Below, in pieces: positions 58,942 to 59,618 of a DNA stretch of 64,000 nucleotides; within the stretch, counting starts at the first letter, position 1; each line of letters starts with the position of its first letter. Location of the stretch: assembly GCF_013167455.1 (NCBI RefSeq), contig NZ_CP038328.1. One strand, 5' to 3'. The notes under the pieces are model-generated. The model ran no database searches and was not told the origin of the DNA. It saw only the letters and a program-made list of their open reading frames with translations. The position numbers and the translations under genes were made by a program. The DNA comes from Escherichia coli O157:H7. GTDB lineage: Bacteria; Pseudomonadota; Gammaproteobacteria; Enterobacterales; Enterobacteriaceae.

Positions 58942-59031
58942 GAGTTCCCCGCGCCAGCGGGGATAAACCGCAAAAGCGGGCAGCGAAAAAATTAAAGTCG
59001 AGGAGTTCCCCGCGCCAGTGGGGATAAACCA
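58942..59031 (+). CRISPR. Minimal orphan type I-E CRISPR array (2 repeats, 1 spacer)
   Basis: Repeat GAGTTCCCCGCGCCAGCGGGGATAAACCG at 58942-58970 and 59003-59031 (2 mismatches in copy 2); 32-nt spacer CAAAAGCGGGCAGCGAAAAAATTAAAGTCGAG; AT-rich leader-like sequence upstream; no cas genes in window. Confidence 0.85.
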
Positions 59032-59480
59032 CCATATAACCCGTTATCTCTTTCTCAAGTTTTTATATTAGCAGTACTCGTAATAAGCAACATATCCACG
59101 TAACCCCTCATGTTCAAAATAGCTCTCCATATATGAAAAGTTCACAATTATCGATACAAAAAATCAAATTTAATTAAAGTGTTATTTGTATGATACTTAA
59201 TCCATTAAGAAATTTTATCTATTATTTTTTTAAATTGAATTAATGTCTATTAATTTTTTTAGATTAATAGTTTGTTTTTTAATCTTGTTATTCATTGATT
59301 AAGTAATAAATCTGGAAATTTGTCTTTGTTTTGAGGCTAATGAGTGGTTTTACATAACCGCCTCTATACGCTGTTGATGAATAGTTCTTATGAATAAAGA
59401 TATCCAGTTCATACTTTAAGTGAAAATTGATAAAGTGCGATTCGTATTGTCTTTTATTCTAAAGACATCGAGTGTAGTTA

Positions 59481-59618
59481 ATATTCCTTGTAAAAACAGG
59501 GATAAACCGAACTAGTTAAAGTTTTTATTATGTTCCCTGCATCAGCGGGGATAAACCGGACTTGTTATCATTTTTTAAGTTGTCGAACTTATGTTCCCCG
59601 CGCCAGCGGGGATAACCA
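59481..59618 (+). CRISPR. Degenerate orphan CRISPR remnant (3 decayed repeats, 2 spacers)
   Basis: Repeat-like units at 59481-59509 (about 18/29 match), 59530-59558 (24/29) and 59591-59618 (1-nt deletion); spacers of 20 and 32 nt. Confidence 0.6.

What the first reader, a model, noticed from the sequence alone, without database searches (positions are those of the whole stretch)
58942..59618. Two short orphan type I-E CRISPR repeat clusters without cas genes
A clean 2-repeat/1-spacer array and a decayed 3-repeat remnant lie in the AT-rich queE-ygcE spacer with no cas genes anywhere in the window. This is the expected position of the E. coli CRISPR2.2-2.3 locus. The arrays are far shorter than I recall for K-12, so array size may reflect strain background or loss of I-E cas activity.
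Basis: partly seen in the sequence, partly recalled or inferred. Interest (0 to 1): 0.5.

Follow-up and report, generated by a model that had tools for sequence, protein, structure and literature searches.

The report
E. coli O157:H7 second CRISPR locus
These repeats are the well-described second CRISPR locus (CRISPR2.3 plus the fossil CRISPR2.2) of E. coli O157:H7; they are not orphan, because closely matching O157:H7 genomes carry a complete type I-E cas operon about 12 kb beyond the window's edge.

Summary
Five type I-E repeats lie on the + strand between queE and ygcE: a clean 2-repeat/1-spacer array (58942-59031) behind a conserved leader, and 449 bp downstream a 3-repeat decayed cluster (59481-59619). 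The repeat pattern has 4 hits against 0 expected by chance.

The label "orphan, without cas genes" is an artefact of where the window ends. The locus region (window 58000-60500) is 100% identical to E. coli O157:H7 chromosomes. In such a genome a complete eight-gene I-E operon (cas3 to cas2) and a third array start about 16 kb downstream of the repeats. All eight proteins pass curated I-E family cut-offs.

The layout is the published "CRISPR-II" locus: CRISPR2.3 with leader2.3, a 0.5 kb gap, then CRISPR2.2 with invariable spacers.
- K-12 has the same leader and an identical CRISPR2.2, but six spacers in CRISPR2.3.
- The single O157 spacer is a lineage marker (305 of 5,426 complete genomes, O157:H7/O55:H7) and is the oldest of three spacers in O55:H7.
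- The CRISPR2.2 spacer is in 4,047 genomes.
- Neither spacer has a credible phage or plasmid target.
- E. albertii has one uninterrupted array ending in the same terminal repeat, so CRISPR2.2 is probably the cut-off distal end of an ancestral array.

Already known; low interest.

The parts
57931..58602 (+). queE (ygcF), upstream flanking gene
   Evidence: 223-aa ORF; annotated as 7-carboxy-7-deazaguanine synthase QueE in identical O157:H7 genomes
58603..58941 (+). Leader2.3: AT-rich (30.7% GC) leader of the CRISPR2.3 array, ending ...AATCATTAATTAATAATAGGTTATGTTTAGA
   Evidence: Nearly identical to the K-12 leader. The proximal ~80 bp are invariant in O157, K-12, strain E69, E. albertii and Escherichia sp. 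MOD1-EC7003. Leader role from PMC3903273, PMC3737337 and PMC10011333. The consensus promoter scan was not above chance.
58907..58933 (+). Inferred IHF-binding segment of the leader (positions -35 to -9 from the first repeat)
   Evidence: Positions taken from the K-12 description in PMC10011333 and transferred by the 100% identity of this stretch to K-12. Inferred, not tested.
58942..58970 (+). CRISPR2.3 repeat 1 (perfect I-E consensus, GAG/'type T' variant)
   Evidence: folds to a 7-bp stem and tetraloop, -15.1 kcal/mol
58971..59002 (+). CRISPR2.3 spacer CAAAAGCGGGCAGCGAAAAAATTAAAGTCGAG
   Evidence: Present in 305 of 5,426 complete E. coli genomes; the rows listed are O157:H7 or O55:H7. It is the leader-distal (oldest) of three spacers in O55:H7 RM12579. 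No protospacer in phages or plasmids.
59003..59031 (+). CRISPR2.3 terminal repeat (C17->T gives a G.U pair in the stem; ends ...ACCA)
   Evidence: The same T variant is in O55:H7. K-12 has C at that position.
59032..59480 (.). 0.5 kb AT-rich (26.5% GC) segment separating the two arrays; no recognisable leader
   Evidence: Present in K-12 and E69, absent in E. albertii. Similarity to leader2.3 is not significant (z = 2.6, inside the shuffle range). The first 269 bp are fast-evolving and the last 180 bp conserved.
59481..59509 (+). CRISPR2.2 degenerate repeat ATATTCCTTGTAAAAACAGGGATAAACCG
   Evidence: D2. It still folds to the same 7-bp hairpin through two C-G to U-A double changes and one G.U pair. 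Identical in K-12 and E69.
59510..59529 (+). CRISPR2.2 short (20-nt) invariable 'spacer' AACTAGTTAAAGTTTTTATT
   Evidence: Together with the next repeat it forms a 49-bp unit that strain E69 lacks. It resembles the start of the next repeat-spacer unit (74% over 46 nt).
59530..59558 (+). CRISPR2.2 middle repeat ATGTTCCCTGCATCAGCGGGGATAAACCG
59559..59590 (+). CRISPR2.2 invariable spacer GACTTGTTATCATTTTTTAAGTTGTCGAACTT
   Evidence: Identical in K-12. Found in 4,047 of 5,426 genomes. Has 2 substitutions in E69. No phage or plasmid target.
59591..59619 (+). CRISPR2.2 terminal repeat ATGTTCCCCGCGCCAGCGGGGATAACCAT (one A lost from the 3' part)
   Evidence: Homologous to the terminal repeat of the single E. 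albertii array.
59620..59664 (.). GC-rich tail between the last repeat and the ygcE stop codon
   Evidence: Conserved in K-12, E69 and E. albertii
59665..61143 (-). ygcE, downstream flanking gene (convergent with the arrays)
   Evidence: 492-aa ORF; annotated as an FGGY-family carbohydrate kinase

Best explanation
[quoted passage not shown] It is the second, cas-distal array site, and it is served in trans by the cas operon that lies about 16 kb away between cysH and iap.

The leader-adjacent array (CRISPR2.3, 58942-59031) is a minimal but structurally complete array. It has a conserved leader carrying the integration signals and a promoter, one perfect repeat, one 32-nt spacer, and a terminal repeat with an intact hairpin. 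If it is transcribed and Cas6e is present, it should give one 61-nt crRNA that loads Cascade. New spacers would be inserted at the leader-repeat junction by Cas1-Cas2 with IHF.

The second cluster (CRISPR2.2, 59481-59619) is most likely the leader-distal end of an ancestral single array. A 0.5 kb AT-rich segment cut it off from the leader. It can no longer acquire spacers, and its sequence is frozen across the species.

The one-spacer state is a lineage trait of O157:H7, whose spacer is the oldest one in its O55:H7 relative.

Shown here: the anatomy, the genomic partner genes, the population distribution and the cross-species layout. Inferred from K-12 literature: transcription, H-NS silencing, IHF-dependent integration and crRNA processing.
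For: Repeats, spacing and chance expectation. All five repeats fold into the same hairpin. 100% identity of window 58000-60500 to O157:H7 chromosomes, with queE and ygcE as flanks. Complete cas3-to-cas2 operon and a 4-repeat CRISPR2.1 array in the same genome. All eight proteins exceed curated NCBIfam I-E cut-offs (for example casA 620 bits against 70, cas1e 380 against 216). Operon >=99% identical in 309 genomes, compared with spacer 1 in 305. K-12 has the same leader, gap and CRISPR2.2, with 7 repeats in CRISPR2.3. O55:H7 has 3 spacers, the last of which is the O157 spacer. The CRISPR2.2 spacer is in 4,047 genomes. The leader core is invariant across five Escherichia lineages, and E. albertii has a single gapless array with the same terminal repeat and tail. 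[quoted passage not shown]
Against: The source genome beyond position 64000 was not available. The presence of cas genes is inferred from closely matching O157:H7 genomes, not read from the same molecule. No expression or processing data were examined. The promoter scan of the leader was no better than chance (4 sites against 4.5 expected). No protospacer was found for either spacer, so present-day immune usefulness is undemonstrated. Native E. coli I-E systems are reported as H-NS-silenced (PMC10011333). The direction of the split event (insertion in E. coli or deletion in E. albertii) is not resolved by three lineages.
Confidence: 0.95

Rival explanations
1. One reading: genuinely orphan arrays, relics of a type I-E system whose cas genes have been lost from this strain.
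For: No cas gene in the 64 kb window. Arrays are very short. Some E. coli (for example BL21, per PMC3737337, and B2 strains) do lack cas-E genes while keeping this locus.
Against: O157:H7 genomes 100% identical over the locus carry the complete operon 16 kb away. Its proteins pass curated cut-offs. 309 genomes hold a >=99% identical operon, against 305 with the lineage spacer.
Confidence: 0.02
2. The locus is structurally intact but functionally inert in O157:H7. On this view it is a silent genomic fossil whose only practical value is as a lineage marker, with no acquisition or interference occurring in nature.
For: A single old spacer is shared with O55:H7 and no newer ones were found in the three O157-like arrays examined; the locus region is >=99% identical in 308 genomes. 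No protospacers were found. H-NS silencing is reported for E. coli I-E (PMC10011333). PMC3903273 notes that low spacer numbers in MLST group E may reflect low activity.
Against: The cas genes are intact. O157 Cas1-Cas2 are integration-competent when expressed (PMC3737337). The leader core is perfectly conserved across species, which suggests continued constraint. This reading concerns activity level rather than identity, and it is compatible with the best explanation.
Confidence: 0.45
3. CRISPR2.2 and the conserved 180 bp upstream of it are kept by selection for a non-immune role, for example a conserved Cas6e-processed RNA or a structured element acting on transcription that runs into convergent ygcE.
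For: 59301-59619 is >=99% identical in 3,448 genomes, while the adjacent 59032-59300 is mostly 80-95% identical. All three CRISPR2.2 repeats keep the hairpin, the most decayed one through two double (compensatory-looking) changes. That repeat is 29/29 identical in divergent strain E69, where the neighbouring 80 bp are 88% identical.
Against: The statistics are weak: about 0.05-0.1 for the paired changes by simple combinatorics, and 0.88^29 = 0.025 for the E69 conservation. Conservation rises gradually toward ygcE rather than peaking on the repeats. E69 lacks one whole repeat unit and E. albertii lacks the entire block. No Rfam family matches. About 1,260 E. coli genomes have no match to this block.
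Confidence: 0.05

Closest known systems
E. coli K-12 CRISPR-II locus (CRISPR2 of Touchon; CRISPR2.2 + CRISPR2.3 of Diez-Villasenor/Mojica), between ygcE and ygcF/queE
   Same: Same flanking genes and orientation. The leader is nearly identical, including the last 100 bp or so. The same 0.5 kb gap is present. CRISPR2.2 is the same apart from one substitution, in the loop of its terminal repeat.
   Different: CRISPR2.3 has 1 spacer here against 6 in K-12, and none is shared. The repeats here are the GAG ('type T') variant, whereas K-12 CRISPR2.3 uses GTG ('type A'). The terminal repeat carries a C17->T change.
E. coli O55:H7 RM12579 CRISPR2.3
   Same: Same leader, same terminal repeat variant (…CAGTGGGG…), same oldest spacer and same CRISPR2.2.
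   Different: O55:H7 has two additional leader-proximal spacers. O157:H7 has either lost them or never acquired them.
E. albertii NBRC 107761 single array ('CRISPR2.2-3' type)
   Same: Identical leader core. The terminal repeat (…GATAACCAT) and the tail before ygcE are homologous.
   Different: One uninterrupted 3-repeat array. It has no 0.5 kb gap, no degenerate hairpin repeat, and different spacers.
Orphan CRISPR arrays (for example E. coli BL21, which keeps arrays but lacks cas-E genes, per PMC3737337)
   Same: The same locus and leader exist in such strains.
   Different: The O157:H7 genome retains a complete I-E cas operon, so the array here is cas-distal, not orphan.

Membership tests
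Type I-E CRISPR array (E. coli CRISPR2 repeat type) | Two or more direct repeats of 28-29 bp matching the I-E consensus GWGTTCCCCGCGCCAGCGGGGATAAACCG | tested here: met
   0, 2, 5 and 5 mismatches for four copies, plus one highly degenerate copy. 4 hits against 0 expected.
Type I-E CRISPR array (E. coli CRISPR2 repeat type) | Regular 61-bp periodicity (29-nt repeat + 32-nt spacer) | tested here: met
   Spacing is 61 bp in both clusters. One aberrant 49-bp unit occurs in CRISPR2.2.
Type I-E CRISPR array (E. coli CRISPR2 repeat type) | Palindromic repeat core able to form the Cas6e-recognised stem-loop | tested here: met
   All five copies fold to the same 7-bp stem and tetraloop, -7.9 to -15.1 kcal/mol, z -2.9 to -3.7. 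Cas6e binding itself was not tested.
Type I-E CRISPR array (E. coli CRISPR2 repeat type) | AT-rich leader with a conserved repeat-proximal integration region | tested here: met
   Met for CRISPR2.3: the leader is identical to K-12 over the proximal ~100 bp and invariant over ~80 bp in five lineages. Not met for CRISPR2.2: no significant leader similarity upstream, in agreement with PMC3903273.
Type I-E CRISPR array (E. coli CRISPR2 repeat type) | Cognate I-E cas genes (cas3, cse1/casA, cse2/casB, cas7, cas5, cas6e, cas1, cas2) in the genome | tested here: met
   Not in the window. Present and unflagged in an O157:H7 genome that differs from window 38000-64000 by 1 base. All eight exceed NCBIfam cut-offs. 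For the actual source genome this is an inference.
Type I-E CRISPR array (E. coli CRISPR2 repeat type) | Transcription and processing into crRNAs; interference against matching DNA | not testable with these tools
   Known for the K-12 CRISPR-2 array (PMC10011333, PMC5394155). No data here for O157:H7.
Type I-E CRISPR array (E. coli CRISPR2 repeat type) | Spacers traceable to mobile elements | tested here: inconclusive
   Best phage and plasmid hits are partial, with E-values from 0.02 to 4, in unrelated hosts. The only full-length 'plasmid' hits are 4.8-4.9 Mb E. coli records, which are chromosomes carrying the locus itself. This is typical for E. coli spacers (PMC10011333).
E. coli CRISPR-II locus (CRISPR2.2 + CRISPR2.3) | Location between ygcE and ygcF (queE) | tested here: met
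E. coli CRISPR-II locus (CRISPR2.2 + CRISPR2.3) | Two arrays separated by about 0.5 kb, with a leader only beside CRISPR2.3 | tested here: met
   449 bp separate the CRISPR2.3 terminal repeat from the degenerate repeat, and 498 bp separate it from the first well-preserved CRISPR2.2 repeat. Matches PMC3903273.
E. coli CRISPR-II locus (CRISPR2.2 + CRISPR2.3) | CRISPR2.2 = 3 repeats with two invariable spacers | tested here: met
   Both spacers are identical in K-12, and the cluster differs from K-12 by one base, in the loop of the terminal repeat. The 32-nt spacer is in 4,047 of 5,426 genomes. Matches PMC4489801.
Orphan CRISPR array | No cognate cas genes anywhere in the genome | tested here: not met
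   A complete I-E operon lies between cysH and iap in O157:H7 genomes identical over the locus.

The most novel reading that the evidence does not exclude
The fossil CRISPR2.2 cluster and the ~180 bp upstream of it (59301-59619) may be maintained by purifying selection for a function other than adaptive immunity. Possible examples are a conserved Cas6e-processed RNA or a structured element controlling transcription that runs antisense into ygcE. That would explain its near-invariance across E. coli next to a fast-evolving neighbour, and the retention of the hairpin in the most decayed repeat through paired substitutions.
Probability: 0.05. Interest if true: 0.45.

Novelty: already known. Interest (0 to 1): 0.07.

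Why it matters
It matters little as a discovery. The locus, its two-part architecture, its leader, its invariable CRISPR2.2 and the O157:H7 situation are all in the literature (PMC3903273, PMC3737337, PMC4489801). CRISPR polymorphisms are already used for PCR detection of EHEC serotypes (PMC4722105, citing Delannoy et al. 2012).

The practical lesson is for the scan itself. Absence of cas genes from a 64 kb window does not make an E. coli array orphan, because the I-E system is naturally split over two loci about 16-24 kb apart. The small residual point of interest is the uneven conservation around CRISPR2.2.

Tried and rejected
1. Tandem Repeats Finder on 58000-60500 found only two trivial 8-bp repeats. 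It is unsuited to two-copy interspaced repeats, so this is not evidence against the arrays.
2. Rfam found nothing in the locus at gathering threshold. At E<=1 it gave only sub-threshold Chlorobi-1 hits (19 and 14 bits against a cut-off of 50) on the repeat hairpins. This is uninformative.
3. The promoter/terminator consensus scan of the spacer region gave 4 promoter-like sites against 4.5 expected. The one terminator-like site is inside the array on the wrong strand. It cannot locate the leader promoter.
4. Spacer searches against 50,697 phage and 72,556 plasmid records found no credible protospacer.
5. I tested whether the 0.5 kb gap is a degenerate second leader by local alignment to leader2.3 and to both CRISPR2.1 leaders. 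The best result was z = 2.6, inside the shuffle range. The idea is rejected as unsupported.
6. The first species-wide scan, with the CRISPR2.2 middle repeat, gave 0 hits. The second, with the leader core, gave only 3 loci, so the phylogenetic sampling of the split event is thin.
7. ORFs of 20 aa or more in the spacer region are short, overlap repeats, or run antisense to ygcE. None was pursued as a gene.
8. Chance origin of the repeats is rejected.

Full report
**1. What is in the sequence.**

Between queE (57931-58602, +) and the convergent ygcE (59665-61143, -) lies a 1,062-bp AT-rich spacer. It holds five copies of the E. coli type I-E CRISPR repeat, all on the + strand.
- 58942-58970: a perfect match to GAGTTCCCCGCGCCAGCGGGGATAAACCG.
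- 59003-59031: 2 mismatches.
- 59530-59558: 5 mismatches.
- 59591-59619: 5 mismatches.
- 59481-59509: a strongly decayed copy, ATATTCCTTGTAAAAACAGGGATAAACCG.

The spacings are 61 bp and 61 bp, with one 49-bp unit. A 26-nt repeat core with up to 3 mismatches occurs four times in the window, all here, against none in 100 shuffles. Tandem Repeats Finder did not report the arrays, but it is not designed for interspaced two-copy repeats.

**2. Where the window comes from, and the cas genes.**

The locus region (58000-60500) is 100% identical to many E. coli O157:H7 chromosomes, and 5,423 of 5,426 complete E. coli genomes match it at least in part. Window 38000-64000 differs from strain FRIK944 by 1 base.

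The annotation of the window-equivalent stretch runs from recC to ygcW and contains no cas gene. The window ends only 4.4 kb past the repeats. In the same genome the order continues ygcW-ygcU-…-queD-cysJIH-hok-cas3-casA-casB-cas7e-cas5e-cas6e-cas1e-cas2e, then a 4-repeat array, then iap. cas3 starts at window-equivalent position about 76067.

None of the eight cas genes is flagged as a pseudogene. Each translated product exceeds the curated NCBIfam cut-off of its I-E family or Cas3 domain models. An operon >=99% identical is present in 309 genomes. The arrays are therefore cas-distal, not orphan.

**3. Comparison with K-12.**

K-12 MG1655 has the same arrangement.
- It has the same 339-bp leader, identical over the proximal 100 bp or so.
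- Its leader-adjacent array has 7 repeats and 6 spacers.
- It has the same 0.5 kb AT-rich gap.
- Its decayed cluster carries both invariable spacers unchanged and differs by a single base, in the loop of the last repeat.

So only the leader-adjacent array is shorter in this window, with 1 spacer against 6, and no spacer is shared.

**4. Population and lineage.**

The single spacer of the first array is found in 305 of 5,426 genomes. Every one of the 40 rows sampled across the ranking was labelled O157:H7 or O55:H7, or was an unlabelled strain with the same locus. O55:H7 RM12579 has three spacers here, and the O157 spacer is the leader-distal, oldest one. The C17->T change of the terminal repeat is shared between them.

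The spacer of the decayed cluster is found in 4,047 genomes. Neither spacer has a credible protospacer in the phage or plasmid collections. Apart from three chromosome-sized E. coli records in the plasmid collection, which carry the locus itself, the best hits are partial matches with E-values of 0.02 to 4 in unrelated hosts.

**5. Anatomy and likely mechanism.**

All five repeats fold into the same 7-bp stem with a tetraloop. For the first array the parts needed for function are all present.
- There is a leader whose proximal ~80 bp are invariant in O157, K-12, the divergent strain E69, E. albertii and Escherichia sp. MOD1-EC7003.
- The first repeat is perfect and supplies the 5' handle.
- The second repeat supplies the 3' hairpin, in which G.U replaces G-C.

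The published K-12 description (PMC10011333) places the Cas1-Cas2 site at -1 to -4, the IHF site at -9 to -35 and a likely transcription start about 95 nt upstream of the first repeat. It also reports H-NS-dependent silencing. These positions transfer to 58938-58941 and 58907-58933 by sequence identity, which is an inference. O157:H7 Cas1-Cas2 were shown to integrate spacers when expressed from a plasmid (PMC3737337).

I therefore read the first array as a minimal but competent trans array of a complete, probably silenced, I-E system.

The second cluster has no recognisable leader (PMC3903273), which explains why it never changes.

**6. Origin of the second cluster.**

In E. albertii the same leader is followed by one uninterrupted 3-repeat array. 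Its last repeat (…GATAACCAT) and downstream tail are homologous to the end of the window's second cluster, and there is no 0.5 kb segment.

Strain E69, a divergent Escherichia lineage, has the gap at about 65-88% identity. Its version of the fossil has two repeats and lacks the 49-bp unit.

The simplest reading is that CRISPR2.2 is the distal end of an ancestral array, separated from its leader by the AT-rich segment. The literature already distinguishes single 'CRISPR2.2-3' arrays from split 2.2 + 2.3 arrays (PMC3903273, PMC4489801).

**7. Residual oddities.**

Within E. coli, 59032-59300 is only 80-95% identical in most genomes, whereas 59301-59619 is >=99% identical in 3,448 genomes.

The most decayed repeat keeps its hairpin through two C-G to U-A double changes. 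It is 29/29 identical in E69, where the neighbouring 80 bp are 88% identical.

These facts hint at constraint, but the statistics are weak. Conservation rises gradually toward ygcE rather than peaking on the repeats. E. albertii and about 1,260 E. coli genomes lack the block. I give a non-immune function about 5%.

**8. Verdict.**

'Orphan, without cas genes' and 'loss of cas activity' are not supported.

Every element is already described: the CRISPR-II locus, leader2.3, the invariable CRISPR2.2, the cas-E1/cas-EO variant of O157:H7 and its low spacer counts. CRISPR polymorphisms are already used for EHEC detection (PMC4722105).

Novelty: already known. Interest is low.

Noticed in passing
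window 59032-59300 versus 59301-59619: Conservation inside the intergenic gap is sharply uneven. The first 269 bp are 80-95% identical in most E. coli, while the next 319 bp (including the fossil array) are >=99% identical in 3,448 genomes. The cause is unknown: it could be selection, a recombination boundary or local mutation rate.
   Followed up: partly
window 59481-59509: The most degenerate repeat keeps the canonical 7-bp hairpin through two C-G to U-A double substitutions and one G.U pair. It is 29/29 identical in divergent strain E69.
   Followed up: partly
window 59481-59558; L009 about 1136-1224: The 49-bp unit (20-nt pseudo-spacer plus middle repeat) is absent from strain E69, where the degenerate repeat directly precedes the invariable spacer. 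In the window the degenerate repeat plus the first 17 nt of the pseudo-spacer resembles the next repeat plus the start of its spacer (74% over 46 nt, D2). This suggests an old partial duplication or a deletion in E69.
   Followed up: partly
window 58942-59031 versus L002 6691-6902 and L003: The repeat variants are crossed. O157 CRISPR2.3 uses GAG-type repeats and its cas-adjacent CRISPR2.1 uses GTG-type. K-12 is the reverse. This fits the cas-leader-array module exchange described in PMC3903273.
   Followed up: partly
window 54175-57776: Between eno and queE, O157:H7 has four genes on the - strand (three TPM-domain proteins and a LemA-family protein). K-12 has only yqcG and a single TPM-domain gene, ygcG. 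This is a strain-specific difference in gene content right next to the CRISPR locus.
   Followed up: no
window 40011-41351 (gudX); ygcS and ygcQ just beyond the window end: In the O157:H7 annotation, gudX carries an internal stop, ygcS is frameshifted and ygcQ has an internal stop. These are three pseudogenes near the locus.
   Followed up: no
L001 37724-37876 (outside the window, between cysH and cas3): A Hok/Gef-family toxin gene is annotated immediately upstream of cas3 in O157:H7. K-12 has only the sokX sRNA annotated at the corresponding place.
   Followed up: no
window 36242-36601, 17856-18061, 13077-13370, 14798-14840: Rfam gathering-level hits elsewhere in the window: CsrB, GcvB, three tandem tRNAs (annotated as tRNA-Met) and the ES036 sRNA. 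They are ordinary and unrelated to the finding.
   Followed up: no
PLSDB records NZ_OL790696.1, NZ_CP141089.1, NZ_CP134663.1: Three 'plasmid' records of 4.8-4.9 Mb carry the CRISPR2.2 spacer. By size these are chromosomes filed in the plasmid collection. They could be mistaken for plasmid protospacer hits.
   Followed up: no
window 1-38000 versus NZ_CP016625.1: An ungapped comparison with strain FRIK944 loses register somewhere in the first 38 kb (9,984 mismatches), whereas 38000-64000 differs by 1 base. The window's source therefore differs from FRIK944 by at least one indel upstream. It was not located.
   Followed up: no
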